From NCBI GenBank assembly GCA_041649175.1, contig JBAZNR010000002.1:47149-111148 (forward strand): 64,000 nucleotides of DNA. Direction: 5' to 3'. The notes under the pieces were generated by a model that ran no database searches, had not been told where the DNA came from, and was given only the letters and a program-made list of their open reading frames with translations. The stretch comes from Candidatus Omnitrophota bacterium (GTDB lineage Bacteria; Omnitrophota; Gorgyraeia; Zapsychrales; JBAZNR01). Both the position numbers and the translations under genes were made by a program. This document shows, one piece after another, positions 11,397 through 27,134 of the stretch. Numbering within the stretch: position 1 is the first letter of the stretch; each line of letters begins with the position of its first letter.

Positions 11397-11936
11397 ATGC
11401 TGACAACTCAAAATACGTTCGTTCTTCTCATTGATGTACAAGAGCGCCTGATGGCCCACATCCATAGGGTTGAGGAGTTTAATAAAAATCTCGTTAACTT
11501 CCTTAAAGGTGTCCGCATCTTAGAAGTTCCTTTCATTTTGACCGAGCATGTTCCCGAAAAACTCGGGAAAACCACTTCTCCTATTCTTGAAATCATGCCC
11601 GAAACAATTCCCATTGTTAAAAATACTTTTAGCTGCTGGGGGAACCGGGATTTTAAAAAGTCCGTTAAGAAACTTGGCCGCAAGAAGATCTTGGTTGCCG
11701 GTGTTGAAACCCATGTCTGCGTTTATCAAACCGTTGCCGATCTTGTGCAGGCCGGCTTTGAAGTTCAAGTGGTCAGCGATTGCGTTTCTTCCCGCACCCT
11801 TGACAATAAAAACATCGGCCTTGAGCGCATCAAACATGTCGGCGCGAGCGTTACCAGCGTTGAAACAGCTCTTTGCGAATTACTTAAGATCGCTCAAGGA
11901 GAAAAATTTAAGAAAATCATCCAGCTTATCAAGTAG
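11397..11936 (+). CDS. isochorismatase-family cysteine hydrolase
   Basis: 179 aa. ILVAGVETHVCVYQT catalytic-Cys motif. Confidence 0.8.
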   Translation: MLTTQNTFVLLIDVQERLMAHIHRVEEFNKNLVNFLKGVRILEVPFILTEHVPEKLGKTTSPILEIMPETIPIVKNTFSCWGNRDFKKSVKKLGRKKILVAGVETHVCVYQTVADLVQAGFEVQVVSDCVSSRTLDNKNIGLERIKHVGASVTSVETALCELLKIAQGEKFKKIIQLIK

Positions 11937-11942
11937 GCGAAT

Positions 11943-12452
11943 ATGGGGAAAATCATCATCAAGCAAAACGATATTACCAAAGAAGACGTTGATGTGATTG
12001 TGAACGCGGCGAATACAACACTTCGTGGCGGCGGGGGTGTTGACGGCGCTATTCACCGCGCGGCCGGAAGAAGCGTTTTAGAAGAATGCATTAAGATCGG
12101 CGGCTGTAAAACCGGTGATTGTGCCATGACCAATGCCGGAAAACTAAAAGCCAAACGTATTATTCACACCGTTGGACCGGTTTATTACAACGGAAAAAGA
12201 AATGAGGCGAGTTTTCTTAGGCGTTGTTATCATAACTCTTTTGCGTTGGCCAAAGAACAGCAGCTTAAAACAATAGCTTTTCCGGCGATCAGTACCGGAG
12301 CGTATGGATATCCTATTGAGGAAGCAACACGCATTGCTTTGCAAGAAGGCTTAAAAGCGCAAAATGATTTTGATGAAATTCGTTACGTGTGCTTTTCCGT
12401 GGAAGACTTAGAAATTTATGAGCGGATTTACGGTGAAATGACGCAAGTTTGA
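11943..12452 (+). CDS. macro-domain protein (O-acetyl-ADP-ribose deacetylase, YmdB-like)
   Basis: 169 aa. IVNAANTTLRGGGGVDGAIHRAAG macro-domain signature. Confidence 0.85.
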   Translation: MGKIIIKQNDITKEDVDVIVNAANTTLRGGGGVDGAIHRAAGRSVLEECIKIGGCKTGDCAMTNAGKLKAKRIIHTVGPVYYNGKRNEASFLRRCYHNSFALAKEQQLKTIAFPAISTGAYGYPIEEATRIALQEGLKAQNDFDEIRYVCFSVEDLEIYERIYGEMTQV

Positions 12453-12467
12453 GATCGGAGGAGTTCA

Positions 12468-12908
12468 ATGAAACTAACGAGTCCGGCATTTAGCCACAAT
12501 CAATCTATTCCAAAGAAATATACCTGCCAAGGCGAGAATATCAGTCCGCCGCTAAAAGTAGAGGGCATTCCTCCGGAAACAAAAAGCTTAAGTTTGATCA
12601 TTGACGATCCCGACGCGCCCGGAGGAAATTTTGACCATTGGATCGTTTTTAATATTCCGGTAGTAAGCGAGATCAAAGAAGACGCGATTCCCGGCTTACA
12701 GGGAAGTAATGATTTTGGAAAGTTGGATTACGGCGGCCCGTGTCCGCCTAGTGGTACGCATCGTTATTTTCATAAGGTTTATGCGCTGGATACCATGTTG
12801 AAACTCAACGAAGGTGTTTCCAAGAAACAAGTTGAAAAAGCGATGGAAGGGCATATTCTGGAAATGGCTGAATTGATCGGCTTGTACAAAAAGGAAAGAA
12901 GCTTCTAA
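12468..12908 (+). CDS. YbhB/YbcL-family PEBP (Raf-kinase-inhibitor-like) protein
   Basis: 146 aa. DDPDAPGGNFDHWIVFNIP and GYGGPCPPSGTHRYFHKVYAL motifs. Confidence 0.85.
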   Translation: MKLTSPAFSHNQSIPKKYTCQGENISPPLKVEGIPPETKSLSLIIDDPDAPGGNFDHWIVFNIPVVSEIKEDAIPGLQGSNDFGKLDYGGPCPPSGTHRYFHKVYALDTMLKLNEGVSKKQVEKAMEGHILEMAELIGLYKKERSF

Positions 12909-17852: not shown

Positions 17853-18395
17853 ATGAAGAAAATATTTCTCGCATTATTTTTGACCTTGATCGCCACACCT
17901 TGCTTCGCCGAAGATTTTGCGGTCACCAGCGCGTCGTGGCAAGATGGCGCTATGATGGAGCGCCAATATGTTTTTAACAGCTTTGGCTGTACCGGAGAGA
18001 ATACTTCGCCTCAGGTTTCCTGGCGCAATGCGCCTGAGGGAACAAAAAGCTTTGCCGTAACGGTTTACGATCCCGATGCGCCCACAGGCTCGGGCTGGTG
18101 GCACTGGACGATTTTTAATATTCCGACCGATGTCAGCGATCTTAATGAAGGGGCAAGCGCGAGCGGCGCTTTGCCGGCTTCGGCTGTTCAAGGAAAAACA
18201 GATTTTGGAACCGCGCAATATGGCGGCGCTTGTCCGCCATCGGGTGATAAACCGCATCGTTATATCTTGACCGTTTATGCGCTTGGCATTGATAAGCTTG
18301 ACCTTACAAGCGATGCGTCGGGCGCGATGGTGGGGTATTATTTGAATGCCAATGCTTTAGGAAAAGCTTCGTTAATCGTAAATTATGGAAGATAA
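17853..18395 (+). CDS. secreted YbhB/YbcL-family PEBP protein (second paralog)
   Basis: 180 aa. Signal peptide. YDPDAPTGSGWWHWTIFNIP and GGACPPSGDKPHRY motifs. Confidence 0.85.
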   Translation: MKKIFLALFLTLIATPCFAEDFAVTSASWQDGAMMERQYVFNSFGCTGENTSPQVSWRNAPEGTKSFAVTVYDPDAPTGSGWWHWTIFNIPTDVSDLNEGASASGALPASAVQGKTDFGTAQYGGACPPSGDKPHRYILTVYALGIDKLDLTSDASGAMVGYYLNANALGKASLIVNYGR

Positions 18396-19584: not shown

Positions 19585-19617
19585 CCTATACAATTTCCTA
19601 TACAATACCTATACGAT
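19585..19617. repeat. three direct repeats CCTATACAAT / CCTATACAAT / CCTATACGAT at roughly 11-12 bp spacing, immediately upstream of fic
   Basis: Exact 10-mers at 19585-19594 and 19597-19606, plus a one-mismatch copy at 19608-19617. One helical turn apart, which is iteron/operator-like. Confidence 0.6.
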
Positions 19618-19633
19618 ATGCTATTCTTAGCTC

Positions 19634-20644
19634 ATGTTTAAACCACATTATCGCACCACATCTTTTTTGATCAGTATTCTTGAGAATATGGCCGCGCAAA
19701 CGGCACTTATTAAGAATTCCGGCATTAAGTTTCCGGCGCGTGTTTCTCTTGAAAAAGATGCGGTCAATCGCAGTGTTCATTCCTCAACGTCGATCGAAGG
19801 TAACAACTTATCTCTTAAGCAAGTAGCCGCTTTAAGCGACAGAAAAGACATCGATGCTGATCAAAAACAAAAACAGGAAGTTCAAAATTGTTTAGCGGCC
19901 TTGCGCTGGGTTTTAGCGCACAAGCACAGTGCTTTTACGGAAAGTCAGCTTTTGACACTTCATAAGATGATGACCAAGGGACTTTTGCCTGCTGCTGCGA
20001 TCGGGCGATTTAGAAAAACTCAAAATTATGTGGTGAACGCTAAAAGAATCGTTATTTTTACTCCTCCGCCCCCCCAACAGGTAGCTCGTAAAGTAAAAGA
20101 ACTTTTTCTATGGCTTAAAAATACTCCCCTGGAGCATAGCGTTATTCATAGCGCTATTTTTCATCATGAATTTGTTACCATTCATCCCTTTACTGATGGC
20201 AATGGCCGGGTTGCGCGAGCAGCCAGCCAGTGGATTCTGCTCAAAAAGAAATTTGATCCCGTCTATACCTTAGGACTGGATGACTATTTTGCGCATGACC
20301 GAAACAAATATTATGCGATGATCCAACAGGCGCGCGATTTGGATAATGACTATACACATTGGATCGAGTATGTTGCTCAAGGCCTTTTAGTGTCGATTGA
20401 AAATATTGCCGGACGTATAAAGGAAATGAAGCGCGTCTTAAAAGGAAAAAGGATCGAATTAACGCCCAAGCAGGAAGAGATCTTAAATCTCTTAAATGAG
20501 CATGGCGCGATCGGTTCAGCGCAAATTTCCAAGGCAATGGATATCAATCGTGCGCGGGTTAATCAGCTGGTGGCGCCGCTTGTTAAAGCGGGAATTGTAA
20601 CCCAAGAAGGTAAAGCACGCGGCGTTAAATATGCTTTGAAGTAA
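19634..20644 (+). CDS. fic: Fic-family protein (class II, N-terminal inhibitory helix) with C-terminal winged-helix domain
   Basis: 336 aa. Canonical Fic motif HPFTDGNGRVARA. Inhibitory motif STSIEGN ([ST]xxxE[GN]) near the N-terminus. C-terminal wHTH-like region. Confidence 0.85.
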   Translation: MFKPHYRTTSFLISILENMAAQTALIKNSGIKFPARVSLEKDAVNRSVHSSTSIEGNNLSLKQVAALSDRKDIDADQKQKQEVQNCLAALRWVLAHKHSAFTESQLLTLHKMMTKGLLPAAAIGRFRKTQNYVVNAKRIVIFTPPPPQQVARKVKELFLWLKNTPLEHSVIHSAIFHHEFVTIHPFTDGNGRVARAASQWILLKKKFDPVYTLGLDDYFAHDRNKYYAMIQQARDLDNDYTHWIEYVAQGLLVSIENIAGRIKEMKRVLKGKRIELTPKQEEILNLLNEHGAIGSAQISKAMDINRARVNQLVAPLVKAGIVTQEGKARGVKYALK

Positions 20645-20647
20645 TTT

Positions 20648-20695
20648 GTGCAAAAATTGTCAGGAGCGGTAGAATAGAAGAAACAATTTTTGCAC
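20648..20695 (+). terminator. 13-bp stem / 22-nt loop hairpin directly after the fic stop (possible terminator or RNA structure)
   Basis: GTGCAAAAATTGT at 20648-20660 pairs with ACAATTTTTGCAC at 20683-20695. There is no clear U-tract. Confidence 0.3.
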
Positions 20696-20725
20696 CAGGC
20701 CCAGCAGTTCAATGAATTTAAAATG

Positions 20726-20856
20726 AAAATCCTAAATCCTAATGTCGAAATACTAAACAAATTCCAAATTCGAATTTTAAAATACAAAACTGTTTTGATA
20801 TTTGGATTTAGAAATTAGGGTTTGTTTAGGGTTTAGGATTTAGTGTTTAGGGTTTA
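20726..20856. repeat. about 130-bp AT-rich imperfect palindrome built of degenerate TTTAGGG/TTTAGGA heptamers (left arm CCTAAAT-type, right arm TTTAGGG-type), centred near 20791
   Basis: Left arm AAATCCTAAATCCTAA.... Right arm ...TTAGGGTTTGTTTAGGGTTTAGGATTTAGTGTTTAGGGTTT. Centre CAAAAC-T-GTTTTG. Sits at the left boundary of the low-GC R-M island and contains a perfect TATAAT at 20855-20860. Confidence 0.6.
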
Positions 20857-20934
20857 TAATAAATTTAACAGTTTGCGTCTTTGGTCTTGAATTGCGAAAG
20901 AGGGAGTGGGGAAGGTTTTGAAAGTGATCAGCAT

Positions 20935-21414
20935 ATGAAGAAAATAAATTCTATTCAAGCTGTCGCAATCCTGGCCACGCTTATAAGCGCAGCGACACTT
21001 TTTCGCCGGCAATTTGCGATCATGTTTGTACTTATTAATTTTGATACTTTCGTGAAAGAAAGCGGAAAACTCATTACAATAACAGGCTTGATCATTGATT
21101 TTCTACCTGTTTTGATTATTGTCGGAAGTTTGGGAGTTTTTCTGAGAAGACCGGGAAGTCTGCTCATCCTCAAATGGTGCTTTATTATCTCTTTAATCCT
21201 CAATTTATGGATTGGAATTATTCAATGCATCAATTTCTTTATTTTGCCTTCTATGGAAAATTATATTCCACCCGAAGGTTCCGTGGTTAGAAAAGCTAAC
21301 TTCGTCGCTCCGTTTATCTGGAGCGTTGTTTATGGATCGTTTCTTTATGTTGTCACTCGCCCCAAAGCCAAATTCTTTGGCATCCGAGCTCCAGAAAAAG
21401 ATGCGAGGGATTGA
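20935..21414 (+). CDS. hypothetical integral membrane protein (about 4 TM), first gene of the low-GC island operon
   Basis: ATG at 20935 (MKKINSIQAVAIL...). The track ORF extends to a TTG at 20881. No known motif. Confidence 0.5.
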   Translation: MKKINSIQAVAILATLISAATLFRRQFAIMFVLINFDTFVKESGKLITITGLIIDFLPVLIIVGSLGVFLRRPGSLLILKWCFIISLILNLWIGIIQCINFFILPSMENYIPPEGSVVRKANFVAPFIWSVVYGSFLYVVTRPKAKFFGIRAPEKDARD

Positions 21415-21428
21415 AGGAGCATTAAATA

Positions 21429-22067
21429 ATGCGTATAATTTTTGCTATACATGGAATTCAAAGCGTCCAAAAGGATAATTGGGTTAATAAATTTGTTAAC
21501 TATATTAACGAAGATGAACGATTTGATGGTGATATTAAAATACCGCATACTTATGGATATCTCCGGGCGCTTAATTCAGTAAACATGAAAACTAAATTTG
21601 ATCATGTTAAAAGTGTCATGCGAGAGTTGAGATCTCTTACGACTCAATATCCCGATGCTGAATTAAACATTGTTGGACACAGTTATGGGACAGAATTGAG
21701 TTATCAGGCGATCAAAAGAAGCGAAGAAGATGGCAAGTCGCCAATCAAAGTTAATAAGTTGATTTTAGTAGCCAGTATCGTTTCTGCTCATAGAGAAATT
21801 CCGTATGATGATACTCTGCGTGCTGGAAAGTTGAATGAGCTACATTGTTATTGCAGCTATAATGATGAAGTTTGTAGATATAATCCTTTTGGTCATTCTG
21901 GCTGCTTTGGTTTTTTGCGGAGCGCCTATGACATGAAATGTTATCAAAAACCTTTTAAAGATCTAGAAATTTATAATCATCAACAAAAAACTTTAGAACA
22001 TGGAGATTATTTTGAAGGAACTAAATTTTACAAAGAATGGCTTGATGTTATCGATCTAAGAAAGTAA
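21429..22067 (+). CDS. minimal alpha/beta-hydrolase, lipase/esterase-like (GHSxG serine hydrolase)
   Basis: 212 aa. N-terminal IIFAIHGIQS (oxyanion region) and nucleophile elbow IVGHSYGT. Candidate Asp at YNDEV and His at FGHSG. Size and layout resemble minimal lipases. Confidence 0.55.
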   Translation: MRIIFAIHGIQSVQKDNWVNKFVNYINEDERFDGDIKIPHTYGYLRALNSVNMKTKFDHVKSVMRELRSLTTQYPDAELNIVGHSYGTELSYQAIKRSEEDGKSPIKVNKLILVASIVSAHREIPYDDTLRAGKLNELHCYCSYNDEVCRYNPFGHSGCFGFLRSAYDMKCYQKPFKDLEIYNHQQKTLEHGDYFEGTKFYKEWLDVIDLRK

Positions 22068-22076
22068 CTTAATGTT

Positions 22077-23804
22077 ATGGTAAGAAAAATAAGCGGAAAA
22101 GAATATGAAGCTTGGTCAAAGGAGGATTTGATCAAGGAAATCGTGAAGATAAAAAGCACGACGTATGGGCTTGTTTGGCATCGCGATTTGCCAGAAGAAA
22201 AAATTGATATTTTAGTCAATCCGGATGCACGTACGCCAAGCGAGATGTTTCCCAACGAAATGGCGGGTAAGCCATTTCCTGTCTTGAAAGAAGTTAAGAA
22301 TAAAGCAATTGAATCTGATAAATCAAAACTCGTAAATCTTTTGATTGAGGGGGATAACTACCATTCTCTAGCTGTCCTTAATTTCACGCACCGCGAAGCG
22401 GTCGATTTGATCTACATTGATCCGCCTTACAATACCGGCAATAATGATTTCATTTACAATGACAAACTTGTTGATAAAGAGGATAGTTTTCGACATAGCA
22501 AATGGCTTTCGTTTATGGAGAAGCGTCTCAAGCTGGCAAAAAATCTTTTGAAACAAAGCGGGGTCATTTTTTTAAGTATTGACGATAATGAGCTGGCGCC
22601 ATTACGAATGCTTTGTGATGAAATATTCTCTTCAGAGAATTTCTTGGCAACGATAGTTTTGAAGAACAAAGCGGGTGCTGGAGCAAAACCAAAAGCATTA
22701 ATCGAGGTGCACGAATATATTTTGATGTACGCAAAAAGTTCCAGTTTCATTAAATCAATAAGCGTTCCTTATATTGAATCAAACAACAAGTTATTTACAA
22801 AAAAAGATAAGCATTTTTCGATCAGGGGACCTTACGGGACTTGGGCATTGGGGACAACTAGCATGGCTGATAGGCCAAATCTACGATACCCGATTAACTA
22901 TAATGGAGAAGAAATTTGGCCCGAAAAGCAATGGCTTTGGTCCAAAGAACGCGTAGAACAAGCAATGAAGAACGATGAACTTGTGTTCAATAAAATGAAA
23001 AACGGAAAATGGTCGGTTAGATTTAAACAATATTTAAAGGATAAAGATGGAATCTTGAGGAATTCAACCCCAACAACTCTTTTTGAGGGACCATATACAC
23101 ATGAAGGAACAAAAGAATTAGACGACATTCTAGGGAACCGTTTATTTATGTTTCCTAAGCCTGTTAACTTAATTAAGAAAATTCTAAAATTTAATTATAA
23201 TGGGGAGAAAAACAAAAATCACGTCATTCTTGACTTTTTTGCTGGTTCAGGGACAACAGGTCATGCAGTTTTAGAGCTAAACAAAGAAGACGGCGGTTGC
23301 AGATCCTTTATTTTATGTACGAATAACGGGGATCAAAAATCAGAGCATAAAATCGCTTCAGATATTTGTTATCCTCGGGTTAAAAAAGTAATAAGTGGAT
23401 ACAAAAATCAGAAAGAAGAGAAAGTCGATGGACTTGGCGGAAATCTCAAATATTACGCAACCGATTTCGTAGAAGCTGAGCCAACAGATAAAAATAAGCG
23501 AAAGCTAGTAAAAGAATCAGCGGATATGCTGTGCATCTTAGAAAATGCTTTTGAGTTTGTCCAAGGAACGGACGAATTCAAGATTTTTAAGAATACGGAT
23601 AAGTACATTGGGATTATTTTCTATGAGGAGGCAATAGAGGATTATAAAAAGATAATCAAAAAGATTGATGGGCGTTTTAACACTTACGTTTTCTCGATGG
23701 GTGATGATCCGCATGTGAGGAAATTTGCTGATGTTAAGAGTAAGGTGTCGCTTTGTGCAATTCCCGAAGTGATCCTAAAGGTATATCGGGAGATTTTTAA
23801 ATAA
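22077..23804 (+). CDS. mod: Type III restriction-modification methyltransferase (Mod), beta-class N6A/N4C MTase
   Basis: 575 aa. Motif IV IYIDPPYNTG precedes motif I LDFFAGSGTTGHA. Adjacent to the res gene. Confidence 0.85.
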   Translation: MVRKISGKEYEAWSKEDLIKEIVKIKSTTYGLVWHRDLPEEKIDILVNPDARTPSEMFPNEMAGKPFPVLKEVKNKAIESDKSKLVNLLIEGDNYHSLAVLNFTHREAVDLIYIDPPYNTGNNDFIYNDKLVDKEDSFRHSKWLSFMEKRLKLAKNLLKQSGVIFLSIDDNELAPLRMLCDEIFSSENFLATIVLKNKAGAGAKPKALIEVHEYILMYAKSSSFIKSISVPYIESNNKLFTKKDKHFSIRGPYGTWALGTTSMADRPNLRYPINYNGEEIWPEKQWLWSKERVEQAMKNDELVFNKMKNGKWSVRFKQYLKDKDGILRNSTPTTLFEGPYTHEGTKELDDILGNRLFMFPKPVNLIKKILKFNYNGEKNKNHVILDFFAGSGTTGHAVLELNKEDGGCRSFILCTNNGDQKSEHKIASDICYPRVKKVISGYKNQKEEKVDGLGGNLKYYATDFVEAEPTDKNKRKLVKESADMLCILENAFEFVQGTDEFKIFKNTDKYIGIIFYEEAIEDYKKIIKKIDGRFNTYVFSMGDDPHVRKFADVKSKVSLCAIPEVILKVYREIFK

Positions 23805-23805
23805 T

Positions 23806-26043
23806 ATGATATTCGAATTTAAAGATTACCAAGAAAATGCTGTTGTAAAGTTGAAGCGAGAAATCAATGAGCTTTTGGACTCGGATGAGAGCAAAATTTG
23901 TATTTTTAAAGCGCCTACAGGATCTGGTAAAACGCTGATGATGGCAGAATTCTTAAAGCGCTTAGTCGACTCTCGCGCAGATGGTAAGAAATTCTCGTTT
24001 GCATGGATTGCTGTAAATAAATTGCATGACCAGAGCCGAAATAATCTTCGGAAATATTACGATGAAAACGGTGTAGGTATAAAATGCTCGTATTTTGAAG
24101 ATTTGGATGATCGTAAAATTGGCGAAAACGAGATTTTATTTCTGAACTGGGCAAGTATCAATAAAAAAGACAATTTGTATGTTCGCGCAAATGAACGAGA
24201 TAACAATTTGACAAGTATTGTCGCTCGAACGAAAGATGAGGGCAGAATAATTTTTCTCATCATTGATGAAAGCCATCACACAGCGAATAGTGAAAAATCA
24301 AAGGAACTGATACAAGATATTGGACCCAAAATTACGATTGAAGTTTCAGCTACTCCACAACTAAATAACGCAAGCAGAATTGTTGAAGTGGAACTTAAAG
24401 ACGTAAAAGATGAAGAGATGATCAAGAAAGAAATTGTCATTAACCCTGGTTTTGAACATTACATCATTGATAAGAAGAAAAGTGACAAAACTGCAGATGA
24501 GCTTGTGCTAGAGACTGCGTTAAAAAAGCAGATTGAATTACAGAAGAAGCTTGAGATTGAAGGATCGGGTATTAATCCACTTTTGCTCATTCAATTACCG
24601 GATGCAGTGCAGGGTGTATCGGATAAAAAAGACGAGATTGTTACTTTACTCAAGAAATTTGGCTATACAACAGAAAACGGTCGACTCGCGATTTATCTTT
24701 CTGATAAAGACAACAAGGTAAACCTTACGAATATAGAGAAGAATGAGAACGAGGTTGAGGTGATGATATTCAAGCAAGCGATTGCGCTTGGCTGGGATTG
24801 TCCGCGCGCTTCAATTTTGGTTTTGTTTAGACAATGGCGCGAGGAAAACATTACTTTCTCTATCCAAACGCTTGGACGCATTATGCGTATGCCAGAGCAG
24901 AAACATTACGCCGATCAAGATTTGAACGTTGGCTATGTGTTCACGAGTTTACAGGACATCAATGTCGCCAAAGATTTATCGCGCGATTACATTACAACCT
25001 TTACTGGGTTTAGAATTAAGAATTACAAAAATCTTGATTTACTGGCCTATCACTCAAAGCGTTTCCGTGAGGAAACTCGCCTTTCCTCTGATTTTACGCC
25101 TCTTTTCGTCGAGGCAGGAAAGAAGCTGAAACTCAAAGAAAAGTTTTCATTCAAACATAGTATTTTAAAAACAAGTTTAATCGCGAGTGGTCGTGTTGTT
25201 GACAGTGATAAGGAAACAAAGGGCATAGATAGAAAAGGAACGCTTGATATTCCCAAGAATGAAGTTGAGTTGCAAAATGCGTTTGATATGTTTGCGCGAA
25301 ACAATCTCGCACCATTCGCGCCAGAGCAACGATCAATTGGTCGTATAAAAAGTTCAATCTATTCACTTTTTGAAGCGTCGCGAAACGAAGACGAATGGCC
25401 AAAGATTCAAGCCGCTGTTCTTGCGGAGGAAAACCGCCAAATTATGATTGATACCATCAATTTTGCAAAAGAAATGTATCAAGAAGAAGTTGGAAAAGGT
25501 AAAAATGAGCTAGTGAAGAATGAGGAGCCCTGGAATGTTCCGAAAGTAATAAACTACACTCTTTCTTTTGCAAAGAAAGATTATAAAAAGTCGGTGATGC
25601 TTCCATATTACACAAGGAAGTCCGGTGGAGGCACAGCGAATATGTTTGAAGAAGATAGTAACCTTGAAGTTGATTTCATAGAATATTTGGAAAAATCAAA
25701 AGAAGTGGAGTGGTGGTTTAAAAATGGGAAAAGTGATGCGACGTATTTCGCCGTACCGCATATGGAGCATGGGGCTGAAAAGCCATTTTATGTTGATTTT
25801 ATTGTAATGCAAAAAGATGGTCGCATTGGTTTATTTGATACAAAAGGCGGGCTGACTGCAGAAACGGCAAAATCACGCGCCGAGGGATTGGCAAAATATA
25901 TCACTGAACAAAATAAAAACGGTAAAAAATTATATGGCGGAATTGTGCTGAAAGAAAGGAATAGCTGGCGCTATCGTGATGGTTTGAAATACGAATACAA
26001 TCCAAGCAATCTCAAAGATTGGAAATTTTTGGATTTGAATTGA
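23806..26043 (+). CDS. res: Type III restriction enzyme Res subunit (SF2 helicase + endonuclease)
   Basis: 745 aa. Walker A APTGSGKT near the N-terminus. DEAH-like IIDESHHT. SF2 motif VI region. C-terminal PD-(D/E)xK-like YVDFIVMQK. Starts 2 nt after mod. Confidence 0.8.
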   Translation: MIFEFKDYQENAVVKLKREINELLDSDESKICIFKAPTGSGKTLMMAEFLKRLVDSRADGKKFSFAWIAVNKLHDQSRNNLRKYYDENGVGIKCSYFEDLDDRKIGENEILFLNWASINKKDNLYVRANERDNNLTSIVARTKDEGRIIFLIIDESHHTANSEKSKELIQDIGPKITIEVSATPQLNNASRIVEVELKDVKDEEMIKKEIVINPGFEHYIIDKKKSDKTADELVLETALKKQIELQKKLEIEGSGINPLLLIQLPDAVQGVSDKKDEIVTLLKKFGYTTENGRLAIYLSDKDNKVNLTNIEKNENEVEVMIFKQAIALGWDCPRASILVLFRQWREENITFSIQTLGRIMRMPEQKHYADQDLNVGYVFTSLQDINVAKDLSRDYITTFTGFRIKNYKNLDLLAYHSKRFREETRLSSDFTPLFVEAGKKLKLKEKFSFKHSILKTSLIASGRVVDSDKETKGIDRKGTLDIPKNEVELQNAFDMFARNNLAPFAPEQRSIGRIKSSIYSLFEASRNEDEWPKIQAAVLAEENRQIMIDTINFAKEMYQEEVGKGKNELVKNEEPWNVPKVINYTLSFAKKDYKKSVMLPYYTRKSGGGTANMFEEDSNLEVDFIEYLEKSKEVEWWFKNGKSDATYFAVPHMEHGAEKPFYVDFIVMQKDGRIGLFDTKGGLTAETAKSRAEGLAKYITEQNKNGKKLYGGIVLKERNSWRYRDGLKYEYNPSNLKDWKFLDLN

Positions 26044-26047
26044 AAAT

Positions 26048-27022
26048 ATGACAACGATTAGAAAAACTGAAGGTGGGATAGAATACTTATTTGGATTGCT
26101 AAAAGAAAAAGCAAAAACTGTTACTCGTGCTGCTTTTTGGAAAATCCCACATAAAAACTCACAACAAGAGGATATTTGCCTAAAAATTGGCAGATATAAC
26201 AAGAATGGCTTCGCGCCTGAAACACTTGAAAATACAAATCCAAAAAGTGAACTTACTTTGGATAATGAGGAATTTCAGAAATTACTTGAGTTTTTATCGG
26301 ATAACTACGAACCCTTTAAAAAGGGAGTAAAAGAGTATATCCCAATTGATGAGAAATTTGACCATCAAAAGGTTAAACATTTAAGGGCAATTTTTGCGGA
26401 TCCAGACAAACAGAAAGTTTTGGATTTTATTGCAAAGAACAATATCTTGCCAGAAGACATGATTGCGGGATTGCAACATCAGGCAAGAATGGGGGCGGTT
26501 AGAGAATTTGAAAATATGCTTGACCAAAATTTGCTTGAGCAGAAATGGCAGGAATGGCTAAAGCGAAATGACTGGGTTCTTGGAAGTGAATTTGTGAAGA
26601 TTTTAGAAGAACGAGAAATAGATACCGCAAATATCGCAGATTATTTAATGCAAGCGTATGATGGTTTTCTTGATATTGTTGAAATTAAGCGGCCCGAAGG
26701 GAACTTGCAATTTTGGGCCAATGGGCAGGATCATGGGAACTATGTGCCATCAGCCGACTTAACAAAAGCTGTTACACAAGCGACGAAATATATTTATGAA
26801 GTGGAACGTGAAGCAAACAGTGTGAAATTCTTAGAACGAGTCGCTAATGTAAAAACAATAAAACCGCGTTGTATATTGATTTTCGGTAGATCAAGCGACT
26901 GGAACAATGAGCAAAGAGAAGCATTTCGAATTTTAAATTCTAGCTATCATAATTTAACGATAATGACCTATGACCATGTTTTAAGTCGAGCCAAGCGGAT
27001 TTTAGAAATTGATGAAAAATAA
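26048..27022 (+). CDS. candidate Shedu-like (DUF4263) PD-(D/E)xK nuclease, last gene of the R-M operon
   Basis: 324 aa. Putative nuclease motif D..DIVEIK followed by a conserved C-terminal ILIFGRS....TYD region. Starts 5 nt after res. The assignment to DUF4263 is from memory of the family, not from a search. Confidence 0.4.
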   Translation: MTTIRKTEGGIEYLFGLLKEKAKTVTRAAFWKIPHKNSQQEDICLKIGRYNKNGFAPETLENTNPKSELTLDNEEFQKLLEFLSDNYEPFKKGVKEYIPIDEKFDHQKVKHLRAIFADPDKQKVLDFIAKNNILPEDMIAGLQHQARMGAVREFENMLDQNLLEQKWQEWLKRNDWVLGSEFVKILEEREIDTANIADYLMQAYDGFLDIVEIKRPEGNLQFWANGQDHGNYVPSADLTKAVTQATKYIYEVEREANSVKFLERVANVKTIKPRCILIFGRSSDWNNEQREAFRILNSSYHNLTIMTYDHVLSRAKRILEIDEK

Positions 27023-27134
27023 TTTAAACCGTTTCTAAATAATTATTGTTGTTAAAAAAATAGCGTGCCAGGCACAAAGCGGGGACAGGGTTGCCCCTAC
27101 TGATTTGAGAATAATCAACGAGGAAGGATATCCA

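What the first reader, a model, noticed from the sequence alone, without database searches (positions are those of the whole stretch)
20700..27030. Low-GC five-gene operon: TM protein, minimal lipase-like hydrolase, Type III R-M Mod and Res, Shedu-like nuclease
Five co-directional ORFs (20935-27022) are separated by only 14, 9, 1 and 4 nt, so they are almost certainly one transcript. This block is visibly more AT-rich than the flanking housekeeping genes (sdh, hemN, PPK2). On its left it is bounded by a 130-bp heptamer palindrome that carries a TATAAT, and by a Fic gene. Type III R-M systems are normally two-gene units. Here mod/res is bracketed upstream by a membrane protein plus a GHSxG serine hydrolase, and downstream by a candidate DUF4263 (Shedu-type) PD-(D/E)xK nuclease. 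That suggests a composite, possibly cooperating defence locus with an architecture I do not recognise as described.
Basis: partly seen in the sequence, partly recalled or inferred. Interest (0 to 1): 0.75.

Follow-up and report, generated by a model that had tools for sequence, protein, structure and literature searches.

The report
Modular defence island: Type III R-M plus Shedu
This low-GC block in a Candidatus Omnitrophota genome is a horizontally acquired anti-phage defence island made of separate, mostly already-known modules (a Fic protein, a Type III restriction-modification pair with a Shedu nuclease attached to its end, and an uncharacterised small hydrolase that turns up beside many different defence systems), not one new five-gene machine.

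Summary
Five co-directional ORFs (20935-27022) have gaps of 14/9/1/4 nt and are the five lowest-GC genes of 54 in the window. The domain calls are correct: Type III Mod, a ResIII helicase-nuclease, Shedu SduA and a Ser-Asp-His alpha/beta hydrolase.

Mod-Res-SduA is a recurrent mobile cassette. It recurs as Fic-Mod-Res-SduA in L067 and as Mod-Res-SduA in L060. The same SduA clade also sits 2 nt after a Type II R-M in L069. Shedu genes embedded in R-M systems, Type III included, were already reported (Gu et al. 2023), so this part is not new.

The TM protein is a near-orphan, with 2 homologues among 1.84 billion representatives, and is never linked to the hydrolase elsewhere. The hydrolase family (65 homologues found, the named ones almost all Omnitrophota) lies in about 30 different contexts. 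At least 17 of these directly flank recognised or candidate defence genes of varied kinds: Type III-like and Type I R-M, CBASS, Shedu, dGTPase and PADLOC candidate systems. It is therefore a promiscuous defence-island gene, not a dedicated R-M/Shedu partner.

Tight spacing is the genomic norm here (median gap 15 nt). The hydrolase family is the only mildly novel element.

The parts
19634..20644 (+). Fic-domain protein with a C-terminal winged-helix domain (SoFic-like). It lies at the left edge of the island, and its composition is close to the genome background.
   Evidence: Pfam Fic 5.6e-21 and HTH_24. PADLOC SoFic 3.1e-54 over residues 21-330. The NCBIfam SoFic equivalog scores only 56.7 bits against a cut-off of 550. 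The motif HPFTDGNGRVAR lies at residues 184-195. GC 0.433, z = -0.7.
20648..20695 (.). Perfect 13-nt inverted repeat with a 22-nt loop, immediately after the Fic stop codon.
   Evidence: repeat I2. Function not tested.
20713..20867 (.). Imperfect palindrome of about 155 nt built from 7-nt units (AAATCCT-type units on the left arm, TTTAGGG-type on the right arm). A TATAAT lies at 20855-20860, at its right edge.
   Evidence: It is unique in the window and in the 68 fetched loci. No Rfam family matches. Its role is unexplained.
20935..21414 (+). Small membrane protein of 159 aa with 4-5 hydrophobic segments. It is a near-orphan.
   Evidence: Sequence and hydropathy. No Pfam, PADLOC, NCBIfam or PHROG hit. 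Only two real homologues (E 6.7e-19 and 2.2e-08) among 1.84 billion representatives.
21429..22067 (+). Minimal alpha/beta hydrolase of 212 aa with the triad Ser85-Asp146-His191. It belongs to a narrow family, mostly from Omnitrophota, that is found in defence islands.
   Evidence: GHSYG at residues 83-87. S85, D146 and H191 are invariant in 20 homologues. AF2 model pLDDT 92.9. Generic alpha/beta-hydrolase fold matches with TM-score 0.55-0.64.
22077..23804 (+). Type III Mod (beta-class N6-adenine-type methyltransferase). Its central, variable target-recognition region spans about 22650-23226.
   Evidence: Pfam N6_N4_Mtase 2.6e-35. PADLOC MTase_III 2.2e-91. PDB Type III Mods 6k0w 2.6e-52 and EcoP15I Mod 4zcf_A 1.2e-33. 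DPPY at residues 115-118 lies before FFAGSG at 387-392. DNA homology to four related cassettes is lost between about 22650 and 23226.
23806..26043 (+). Res subunit: an SF2 helicase (GSGKT at residues 39-43, DESH at 154-157) with a C-terminal PD-(D/E)xK-like nuclease region (D664 ... D678-T-K680).
   Evidence: Pfam ResIII 1.6e-20 and DEAD 4.7e-08. PADLOC REase_III 4.3e-20, partial match. The C-terminus weakly matches the BPTD_3080 restriction-endonuclease family. Motifs. Homologues of 70-90% identity are named 'type III restriction enzyme' by JGI.
26048..27022 (+). Shedu nuclease SduA: an N-terminal region of about 160 aa followed by the DUF4263 PD-(D/E)xK domain.
   Evidence: Pfam SduA_C 1.1e-27. 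PADLOC SduA PDLC00385 2.1e-144 over the full length. It aligns to B. cereus SduA 8ti8 (9e-10) with the motif residues conserved: E164, D198, E212/K214 and Q244. More than 2,000 homologues, the best at 75-88% identity, occur across phyla.

Best explanation
The block at 20.7-27.0 kb is a horizontally acquired defence island in a Candidatus Omnitrophota chromosome. It is assembled from separable modules that happen to lie in one co-directional, tightly packed array.

Module 1 is a mobile Mod-Res-SduA cassette. By inference from the families, Mod methylates host sites. Its variable central region sets the specificity. Res, an ATP-dependent SF2 helicase-nuclease, cuts unmethylated invading DNA. SduA is a Shedu PD-(D/E)xK nuclease whose gene starts 4 nt after the res stop. 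It adds a second nucleolytic layer. It probably acts on phage DNA structures such as free ends or replication intermediates, and R-M cleavage may itself generate those ends.

Module 2 is a small soluble Ser-Asp-His alpha/beta hydrolase. It belongs to a narrow family that rides in defence islands next to many unrelated systems, so it most likely acts on its own. Its substrate is unknown, and esterase or lipase-like chemistry is inferred only from the fold.

The membrane-protein gene in front of the hydrolase is a lineage-specific orphan with no demonstrable link to the rest.

A SoFic-like Fic gene on the left completes the island.

Shown here: gene identities, catalytic motifs, foreign composition, recurrence of Mod-Res-SduA, and variability of the hydrolase's neighbours. 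Inferred: every biochemical activity, co-transcription, and any R-M/Shedu synergy.
For: Foreign composition:
- These are the five lowest-GC genes of 54, and GC3 differs between modules (hydrolase 0.255, Mod/Res 0.372, SduA 0.315), which suggests separate origins.

Family assignments:
-.

Recurrence of the cassette:
- L067 carries Fic-Mod-Res-SduA with Res 86%, SduA 80% and Mod 59% identical and a 3-nt Res/SduA gap. About 76% DNA identity runs from 22094 to 26979.
- L060 carries Mod-Res-SduA with Res only 33-40% identical but SduA 87%, also with a 3-nt gap.
- The same SduA clade (88%) lies 2 nt after an AlwI-like Type II R-M in L069.

Modularity:
- Close Res relatives (86-89%) carry other genes, or none, after res, and some have an extra gene between mod and res. 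They sit near serine recombinases.
- The SduA clade also occurs as HTH-SduA-Fic and beside BREX, with no R-M next to it.

Hydrolase:
- About 30 non-redundant contexts were examined. The directly flanking genes include N6_N4 MTase + ResIII (several loci), Type I HsdM, SduA, CBASS cyclase + phospholipase (3 loci upstream, 1 downstream), dGTPase, PDC-S02, PDC-S21, PDC-S37/Hhe-like, a HerA-like ATPase and ThsB-TIR.

TM protein:
- It is a near-orphan.

Literature:
- Shedu within R-M systems and ResIII-DUF4263 fusions are reported.
- E. coli SduA senses free DNA ends.
Against: - No expression or functional data exist, and the organism is an uncultured MAG.
- Res shows no sequence match to any solved Type III Res, including EcoP15I, and only partial PADLOC REase_III matches. 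Its nuclease motif is read from sequence alone.
- The SduA N-terminal domain could not be classified because the AF2 model is poor (pLDDT 62.8), so the trigger of this Shedu is unknown.
- All six closest hydrolase contexts (78-100% identity: the window, L003, L004, L005, L006, L009) have an R-M system just downstream. A looser functional tie between this hydrolase subclade and R-M systems is therefore not excluded.
- Defence enrichment around the hydrolase was not measured against a matched control set of random Omnitrophota genes.
Confidence: 0.8

Rival explanations
1. All five genes form one cooperating, co-transcribed defence system in which the membrane protein and hydrolase work together with Type III R-M and Shedu.
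For: - Gaps are 14/9/1/4 nt on the same strand, with low GC across the whole block.
- No convincing internal terminator was found.
- The closest hydrolase relatives also sit 5' of R-M systems.
Against: - The five-gene order was found nowhere else.
- The TM protein is a near-orphan.
- Hydrolase partners vary widely and include non-R-M systems.
- Homology to related cassettes covers only Mod-Res-SduA.
- GC3 differs between the modules.
- Spacing this tight is the norm in this genome.
Confidence: 0.07
2. Functional coupling within the cassette (a sub-hypothesis compatible with the best explanation). Type III cleavage produces DNA ends that activate SduA or load it, so that Mod-Res-SduA acts as a two-stage nuclease system rather than as two independent neighbours.
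For: - The SduA start codon lies 2-4 nt after the last R-M gene in four independent contexts involving three different R-M families.
- Gu et al. report 602 Shedu genes within R-M systems and ResIII-Shedu fusions.
- E. coli SduA recognises free DNA ends.
Against: - The same SduA clade also stands without any R-M (HTH-SduA-Fic, or next to BREX).
- Close Res relatives lack SduA.
- This SduA's N-terminal sensor domain is unresolved.
Confidence: 0.35
3. The TM protein and hydrolase form a two-gene membrane-directed module, either an abortive-infection effector or a domesticated lysis cassette. This would be analogous to hydrolase-plus-transmembrane defence genes or to phage holin-plus-esterase pairs.
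For: - The 14-nt gap, and a good Shine-Dalgarno sequence (GAAGGAG) before the hydrolase gene.
- In phage contig L051 a hydrolase homologue (40% identity) follows three small membrane-protein genes, one of which hits a PHROG called 'hemolysin'.
- Several other loci have a small TM ORF next to the hydrolase.
Against: - The TM proteins are not homologous to one another.
- Only about a quarter to a third of loci have an adjacent ORF with 2 or more TM segments, which is about what chance would give.
- The hydrolase has no signal peptide or TM segment.
- Neither protein has a PADLOC hit.
Confidence: 0.15
4. The hydrolase has nothing to do with defence. It is ordinary cargo of mobile elements, or a dispensable metabolic esterase, and it hitch-hikes in variable regions where defence genes also accumulate.
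For: - Mobile-element genes lie nearby in several loci: HTH_17, TnsA-like, IS110, rve integrase, RadC.
- It has only a generic fold and no sensor domain.
- It matches no known defence model.
- JGI annotates some members as 'pimeloyl-ACP methyl ester carboxylesterase'.
Against: - Recognised or candidate defence genes lie directly adjacent in at least 17 of about 31 contexts.
- The catalytic triad is strictly conserved.
- No housekeeping neighbour recurs.
Confidence: 0.35

Closest known systems
Type III restriction-modification systems (EcoP15I-type Mod2Res complexes)
   Same: mod lies immediately upstream of res. Mod is a beta-class methyltransferase with DPPY before FxGxG and a variable central recognition region. 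It matches solved Type III Mods (6k0w 2.6e-52, EcoP15I Mod 1.2e-33). Res has an SF2 helicase core plus a C-terminal PD-(D/E)xK-like motif.
   Different: Res is short: 745 aa, against about 970 aa for EcoP15I Res (the EcoP15I length is from my own knowledge). It has no detectable sequence match to any solved Res, and PADLOC REase_III matches cover only residues of about 150-400. Relatives carry an optional third gene between mod and res and variable genes after res.
Shedu (SduA) embedded in R-M systems, as catalogued by Gu et al. 2023 (bioRxiv 10.1101/2023.08.10.552793)
   Same: A single DUF4263 nuclease gene with all four PD-(D/E)xK motifs sits at the 3' end of an R-M operon. That paper counts 602 of 5,499 Shedu genes within Type I-IV R-M systems and proposes complementation.
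   Different: Nothing categorical. This is a particular, highly mobile SduA clade (75-88% identity across Patescibacteria, Ignavibacteria, Flavobacteriaceae and Omnitrophota), found here behind three different R-M families. Its N-terminal domain class is unresolved.
Minimal alpha/beta hydrolases (Bacillus subtilis lipase A, 1i6w; esterase PE8, 5dwd; yeast YDR428C, 1vkh)
   Same: The size (about 180-260 aa), the fold and a Ser-Asp-His triad on a G-x-S-x-G elbow. Foldseek E-values are 1e-6 to 1e-4 and TM-scores 0.55-0.64.
   Different: Sequence identity is only 10-17%. There is no secretion signal. The family has its own conserved motifs (HCYCSxxDEVC, NPFGHSG). The genomic setting is defence islands, not lipid metabolism.
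Hydrolase-plus-transmembrane defence genes (Rst_Hydrolase-3Tm in DefenseFinder; recalled from memory, and the name occurs in three papers)
   Same: A hydrolase is combined with transmembrane segments in an anti-phage hotspot.
   Different: Here the TM protein and hydrolase are separate genes. The TM partner is not conserved. Neither protein matches any PADLOC model. Homology is therefore not supported, and this is a loose analogy only.
SoFic (single-gene Fic defence system)
   Same: A Fic domain with an intact HPFx(D/E)GNGRxxR motif. The PADLOC SoFic model matches across the whole protein (3.1e-54).
   Different: The score is far below the NCBIfam SoFic equivalog cut-off (56.7 against 550 bits). 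Its composition is close to the genome background, so it may not be part of the acquired block.

Membership tests
Type III restriction-modification | Mod is a beta-class N6A/N4C DNA methyltransferase (motif IV DPPY before motif I FxGxG, with the target-recognition domain between them). | tested here: met
   Pfam N6_N4_Mtase 2.6e-35. PADLOC MTase_III 2.2e-91. DPPY at residues 115-118 and FFAGSG at 387-392. The variable centre spans 22650-23226. PDB Type III Mods are hit.
Type III restriction-modification | Res has an SF2 helicase/ATPase core (Walker A, DExH). | tested here: met
   Pfam ResIII 1.6e-20 and DEAD 4.7e-08. GSGKT at residues 39-43 and DESH at 154-157.
Type III restriction-modification | Res has a C-terminal PD-(D/E)xK endonuclease domain. 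| tested here: inconclusive
   The motif D664...D678-T-K680 was read from the sequence. The only model hit is a weak match to the C-terminus of the BPTD_3080 restriction-endonuclease family (3e-05, 22 bits). No structure was predicted.
Type III restriction-modification | Res is sequence-related to characterised Type III Res subunits. | tested here: inconclusive
   PADLOC REase_III matches are partial (4.3e-20, residues 168-379). phmmer finds no PDB hit, EcoP15I Res included. JGI names close homologues 'type III restriction enzyme'.
Type III restriction-modification | mod and res are adjacent on the same strand, with mod first. | tested here: met
   The gap is 1 nt. The same order is found in L061, L065, L067 and L068.
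Type III restriction-modification | ATP-dependent cleavage that requires two inversely oriented unmethylated sites, with hemimethylation of an asymmetric site. | not testable with these tools
   This needs biochemistry or methylome sequencing.
Shedu (SduA) | A DUF4263 / SduA_C nuclease domain. | tested here: met
   PF14082 1.1e-27 (97.6 bits against a cut-off of 27). PADLOC SduA 2.1e-144.
Shedu (SduA) | PD-(D/E)xK motifs I-IV are intact (B. cereus E204, D249, E264/K266, Q295). | tested here: met
   The alignment to 8ti8 places E164, D198, E212/K214 and Q244 at these positions. All are invariant in 29 homologues.
Shedu (SduA) | Acts as a single-gene system (occurs without fixed partners). | tested here: met
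   The same clade is found as HTH-SduA-Fic and beside BREX without R-M, as well as behind three different R-M families.
Shedu (SduA) | An N-terminal regulatory/sensor domain of a defined class (Type 1A-1X), and tetramer formation. | tested here: inconclusive
   About 160 residues precede the nuclease domain. The AF2 model is of low confidence there (pLDDT below 60), so no class was assigned. The oligomeric state was not tested.
SoFic | A Fic core motif HPFx(D/E)GNGRxxR and a full-length match to the SoFic model. | tested here: inconclusive
   The motif is present at residues 184-195. PADLOC SoFic 3.1e-54. The NCBIfam SoFic equivalog scores 56.7 bits against a cut-off of 550.
alpha/beta-hydrolase superfamily (lipase/esterase-like) | A nucleophile elbow G-x-S-x-G and a Ser-Asp-His triad on the alpha/beta-hydrolase fold. 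| tested here: met
   GHSYG at residues 83-87. S85, D146 and H191 are invariant. The AF2 model has pLDDT 92.9. Foldseek gives probability 1.00 for many alpha/beta hydrolases.
Pfam Lipase_3 (class 3 lipase) | A score above the curated gathering threshold across the domain. | tested here: inconclusive
   The score is 25.7 bits against a cut-off of 22, but the match covers only profile positions 3-76 of 140. 59 of the 65 homologues have no precomputed Pfam domain.
Known hydrolase-containing defence systems (PADLOC-DB 2.0.0 models) | An HMM match of the hydrolase or the TM protein to any defence-system model. | tested here: not met
   Both proteins give 0 families at E <= 0.01. Neither has a PHROG hit.

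The most novel reading that the evidence does not exclude
The 210-aa Ser-Asp-His hydrolase family (window 21429-22067) is a previously unrecognised anti-phage gene of Omnitrophota. It could be autonomous, or a portable accessory that sits next to many different defence operons (R-M, Shedu, CBASS, dGTPase and others). It would act through an esterase or lipase-type reaction on a phage-derived or envelope substrate.
Probability: 0.3. Interest if true: 0.55.

Novelty: new member of a known kind. Interest (0 to 1): 0.33.

Why it matters
What looked like a new five-gene architecture is a mosaic of known systems. The R-M-plus-Shedu pairing is already in the literature.

Three points remain useful:
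1. A single SduA clade, 75-88% identical across very distant phyla, is repeatedly placed 2-4 nt behind the last gene of different R-M systems. This makes it a clean natural test case for the proposed R-M/Shedu complementation.
2. The Mod-Res cassette shows optional gene slots, between mod and res and after res.
3. The small hydrolase family is a reasonable guilt-by-association candidate for a new defence or defence-accessory gene, in a phylum with no cultured, genetically tractable members.

Tried and rejected
- TM homology: no neighbour of any hydrolase homologue resembles the TM protein, even at E <= 10. An exhaustive phmmer search found only two real relatives. I therefore rejected 'TM + hydrolase is a conserved pair'.
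- Enrichment of small TM genes next to the hydrolase: about a quarter to a third of loci have one, which is not clearly above chance, so I dropped this as evidence.
- Viral-contig scans: single-sequence scans with SduA and with Res found nothing. The hydrolase scan gave one phage contig.
- Cultured phage genomes hold no hydrolase relative, and plasmids hold only two distant ones.
- The SduA structure prediction was too poor to classify the N-terminal domain, so I did not run a fold search on it.
- The idea that the res 3' end travels with sduA: the alignment shows only ordinary conservation of the Res C-terminus in L060, so I do not claim it.
- Palindrome: no copies elsewhere in the window, in the fetched loci or in viral contigs. 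No Rfam family matches. No comparable structure lies next to Fic or the hydrolase in L067, L052, L009 or L003.
- Flanking direct repeats (att-like): the longest shared word between the two island borders is 10 nt, so there is no evidence of site-specific insertion.
- Promoter and terminator scans were not above shuffle expectation.

Full report
**Source and observation.** The window comes from a 659-kb contig of a Candidatus Omnitrophota MAG.
- TM protein, 20935-21414
- hydrolase, 21429-22067
- Mod, 22077-23804
- Res, 23806-26043
- SduA, 26048-27022

All five are on the + strand, with gaps of 14, 9, 1 and 4 nt. GC in 1-kb windows falls to 0.36-0.40 across the block, against 0.42-0.49 on either side. 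Gene by gene, these are the five lowest-GC genes of 54 in the window (GC z -2.2 to -4.5; GC3 z -2.3 to -6.1).

GC3 is not uniform within the block. It is 0.255 for the hydrolase, 0.315 for SduA, 0.372 for Mod and Res, and 0.384 for TM. That pattern fits several acquisitions better than one.

The left border carries a real imperfect palindrome of about 155 nt built from 7-nt units (20713-20867). Its arms match at 55 of 81 aligned positions, scoring 24 against -2.6 +/- 4.8 in shuffles. As RNA it folds with z = -4.67. A TATAAT sits at 20855-20860.

One correction is needed. In this genome 53 of 58 ORFs are on the + strand and the median same-strand gap is 15 nt. Promoter-like and terminator-like sites are at shuffle level. 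Co-direction and tight spacing therefore say little about co-transcription here.

**What the genes are.**
- **Mod** is a Type III methyltransferase. PADLOC MTase_III gives 2.2e-91. The solved Type III Mods 6k0w (2.6e-52) and EcoP15I Mod (1.2e-33) are hit. DPPY at residues 115-118 lies before FFAGSG at 387-392.
- **Res** has the ResIII/SF2 helicase core: Pfam 1.6e-20, with GSGKT at residues 39-43 and DESH at 154-157. It also has a C-terminal D664...D678-T-K680 motif. It matches PADLOC REase_III models only partially and matches no solved Res by sequence. It is a divergent, short (745 aa) Res.
- **SduA** is a clear Shedu nuclease. PF14082 gives 1.1e-27 and PADLOC SduA gives 2.1e-144 over the full length. 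Aligned to B. cereus SduA (8ti8), the motif residues E164, D198, E212/K214 and Q244 are all present, and they are invariant in 29 homologues.
- **The Fic protein** on the left (19634-20644) has an intact HPFTDGNGRVAR motif and matches PADLOC SoFic (3.1e-54). It falls far below the NCBIfam SoFic cut-off, and its GC is near the genome background.
- **The hydrolase** has GHSYG, and its triad S85/D146/H191 is invariant. The AF2 model is confident (pLDDT 92.9). Its matches are only generic ones to minimal alpha/beta hydrolases, such as B. subtilis LipA, esterase PE8 and yeast YDR428C (TM-score 0.55-0.64, 10-17% identity). Neither the hydrolase nor the TM protein matches any PADLOC, NCBIfam or PHROG model.

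**Is the five-gene order conserved? No.** The TM protein has just two real homologues among 1.84 billion representative proteins. None lies beside any hydrolase homologue.

The hydrolase family is small: 65 homologues were found, and those with a source name come almost entirely from Omnitrophota. I recovered about 30 non-redundant genomic contexts. The neighbours differ almost everywhere, and in most loci they are defence genes:
- Hyd-RadC-N6_N4 MTase-ResIII in L004, L005 and L009
- Hyd-x-x-MTase-ResIII in L003
- Hyd-Type I HsdM in L006
- Hyd-SduA (a different, 432-aa Shedu), with ThsB-TIR genes upstream, in L010/L019
- Hyd followed by a HerA-like ATPase in L018
- Hyd followed by a PDC-S37/Hhe-like helicase-nuclease in L011
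- Hyd followed by a CBASS patatin effector in L014
- Hyd-PDC-S02 in L034, Hyd-PDC-S21 in L043 and Hyd-dGTPase in L045
- a CBASS cyclase plus phospholipase immediately upstream in three further loci

At least 17 of about 31 contexts (the window plus about 30 others) have a recognised or candidate defence gene directly adjacent.

The hydrolase is therefore a promiscuous defence-island gene, not a fixed partner of Type III R-M or Shedu. I note that all six closest contexts (78-100% identity: the window plus L003, L004, L005, L006 and L009) have an R-M system just downstream. A looser tie to R-M systems cannot be excluded. One member (40% identity) lies on a genuine phage contig, behind three small membrane-protein genes.

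**What is conserved is Mod-Res-SduA.** Res and SduA each have very close homologues (70-90% and 75-88% identity) in metagenomes. These include Patescibacteria, Ignavibacteria and Flavobacteriaceae, which points to recent inter-phylum transfer.
- L067 carries Fic-Mod-Res-SduA, with Res 86%, SduA 80% and Mod 59% identical to the window and a 3-nt Res/SduA gap. DNA homology to the window runs from 22094 to 26979, that is, from the start of mod to the end of sduA and no further.
- L060 has Mod-Res-SduA with a much more distant Res (33-40%) but an 87% SduA, again 3 nt after res.
- In L069 the same SduA clade (88%) starts 2 nt after the methylase of an AlwI-like Type II R-M.

The linkage is not obligatory. 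The same SduA clade also occurs as HTH-SduA-Fic and next to BREX. Close Res relatives (87-89%) have other genes, or none, after res. Some carry an extra conserved gene of 245-270 aa between mod and res, and they sit near serine recombinases. In all related cassettes, Mod loses DNA homology between about 22650 and 23226. This is the expected variable target-recognition region.

**Comparison with the literature.** Gu et al. (bioRxiv 10.1101/2023.08.10.552793) report 602 of 5,499 Shedu genes encoded within R-M systems of Types I-IV and 87 within BREX. They also describe Shedu nuclease domains fused to ResIII or N6_N4 methylase domains, and they suggest that Shedu complements R-M. Loeff et al. (bioRxiv 10.1101/2023.08.10.552762) show that E. 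coli SduA senses free DNA ends and nicks near them. The R-M + Shedu arrangement is therefore already described. This locus is a new example of it, in Omnitrophota.

**Most likely mechanism.**
- Shown here: the family assignments, intact catalytic motifs, foreign composition, the recurrent Mod-Res-SduA unit and the variable hydrolase partners.
- Inferred from established knowledge of the families: Mod marks host DNA. Res uses ATP to find unmethylated sites and cut there. SduA, probably held inactive by its N-terminal region, attacks phage DNA structures.
- Speculative: R-M cuts create the ends that SduA recognises. I put this at about 0.35.
- The hydrolase most probably acts on its own. Its role in defence rests on guilt by association only (about 0.3 for a true anti-phage function), and its substrate is unknown. 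The TM gene is a lineage-specific orphan.
- The heptamer palindrome remains unexplained. It is unique in the window and in all fetched loci, and no Rfam family matches it.

**Verdict.** The locus is a modular defence island built from known kinds of system, not a new five-gene architecture. Its novelty is that of a new member of a known kind. The hydrolase family is the one element that could prove new.

Noticed in passing
window 20713-20867: An imperfect palindrome of about 155 nt made of 7-nt units (AAATCCT... / ...TTTAGGG), lying between Fic and the low-GC block. It is unique in the window, in the 68 fetched loci and in viral contigs. No Rfam family matches it, and no counterpart lies next to Fic or hydrolase genes elsewhere. 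Its function is unknown; it could be an operator array, an insulator/terminator or a recombination scar.
   Followed up: partly
window 20648-20695 and 19585-19624: A perfect 13-nt inverted repeat lies directly after the Fic stop codon. A 12-nt tandem repeat (CCTATACAATAT, 3.4 copies) lies directly upstream of the Fic start codon. Both are possible regulatory sites for the Fic protein, which carries a winged-helix domain.
   Followed up: no
L059 6001-7029 (ENA ERZ27247363, contig k141_2684624): An 84%-identical SduA sits next to BREX genes in an Ignavibacteria contig. That contig is from the same ENA sample (ERZ27247363) in which the window's own contig was found, which suggests the gene circulates within that community.
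   Followed up: partly
L061 4505-9914; L065 4451-11048: Close relatives of the Mod-Res pair (Res 87-89% identical) carry an extra conserved gene of 245-270 aa between mod and res; the two copies are 49% identical to each other, and one has a weak hit to an unknown-function PHROG. They also carry unrelated small genes right after res (a 224-aa soluble protein, or 180- and 193-aa membrane proteins). They lie beside large serine recombinases, and one lies beside a rolling-circle Rep gene.
   Followed up: partly
L069 1221-4847: The same SduA clade (88% identical) starts 2 nt after the methylase of an AlwI-like Type II R-M. This is a third R-M family with this Shedu appended at its 3' end.
   Followed up: partly
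L051 8923-13864 (IMG/VR UViG_3300003885_000013): A phage contig with a DNA polymerase and a RuvC-like resolvase encodes a 40%-identical hydrolase homologue. The gene lies directly after three small membrane-protein genes, one of which hits a PHROG labelled 'hemolysin'. This could be a lysis-type cassette.
   Followed up: partly
window 19634-20644; L067 3829-4986; L052 7163-8161: Three mutually distant Fic proteins (26-32% identity over partial alignments) lie directly beside the same SduA clade in three different arrangements: Fic...Mod-Res-SduA twice, and HTH-SduA-Fic once.
   Followed up: no
L015 10001-10429: One hydrolase homologue is truncated to 142 aa, with the alignment stopping at query residue 123. 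It is probably a pseudogene.
   Followed up: no
window about 11397-12908 and 17853-18395: Upstream of the sdh genes lies a run of isochorismatase-family, Macro-domain and PEBP genes. A second PEBP paralogue (37% identical) follows hemN. I did not examine these further.
   Followed up: no
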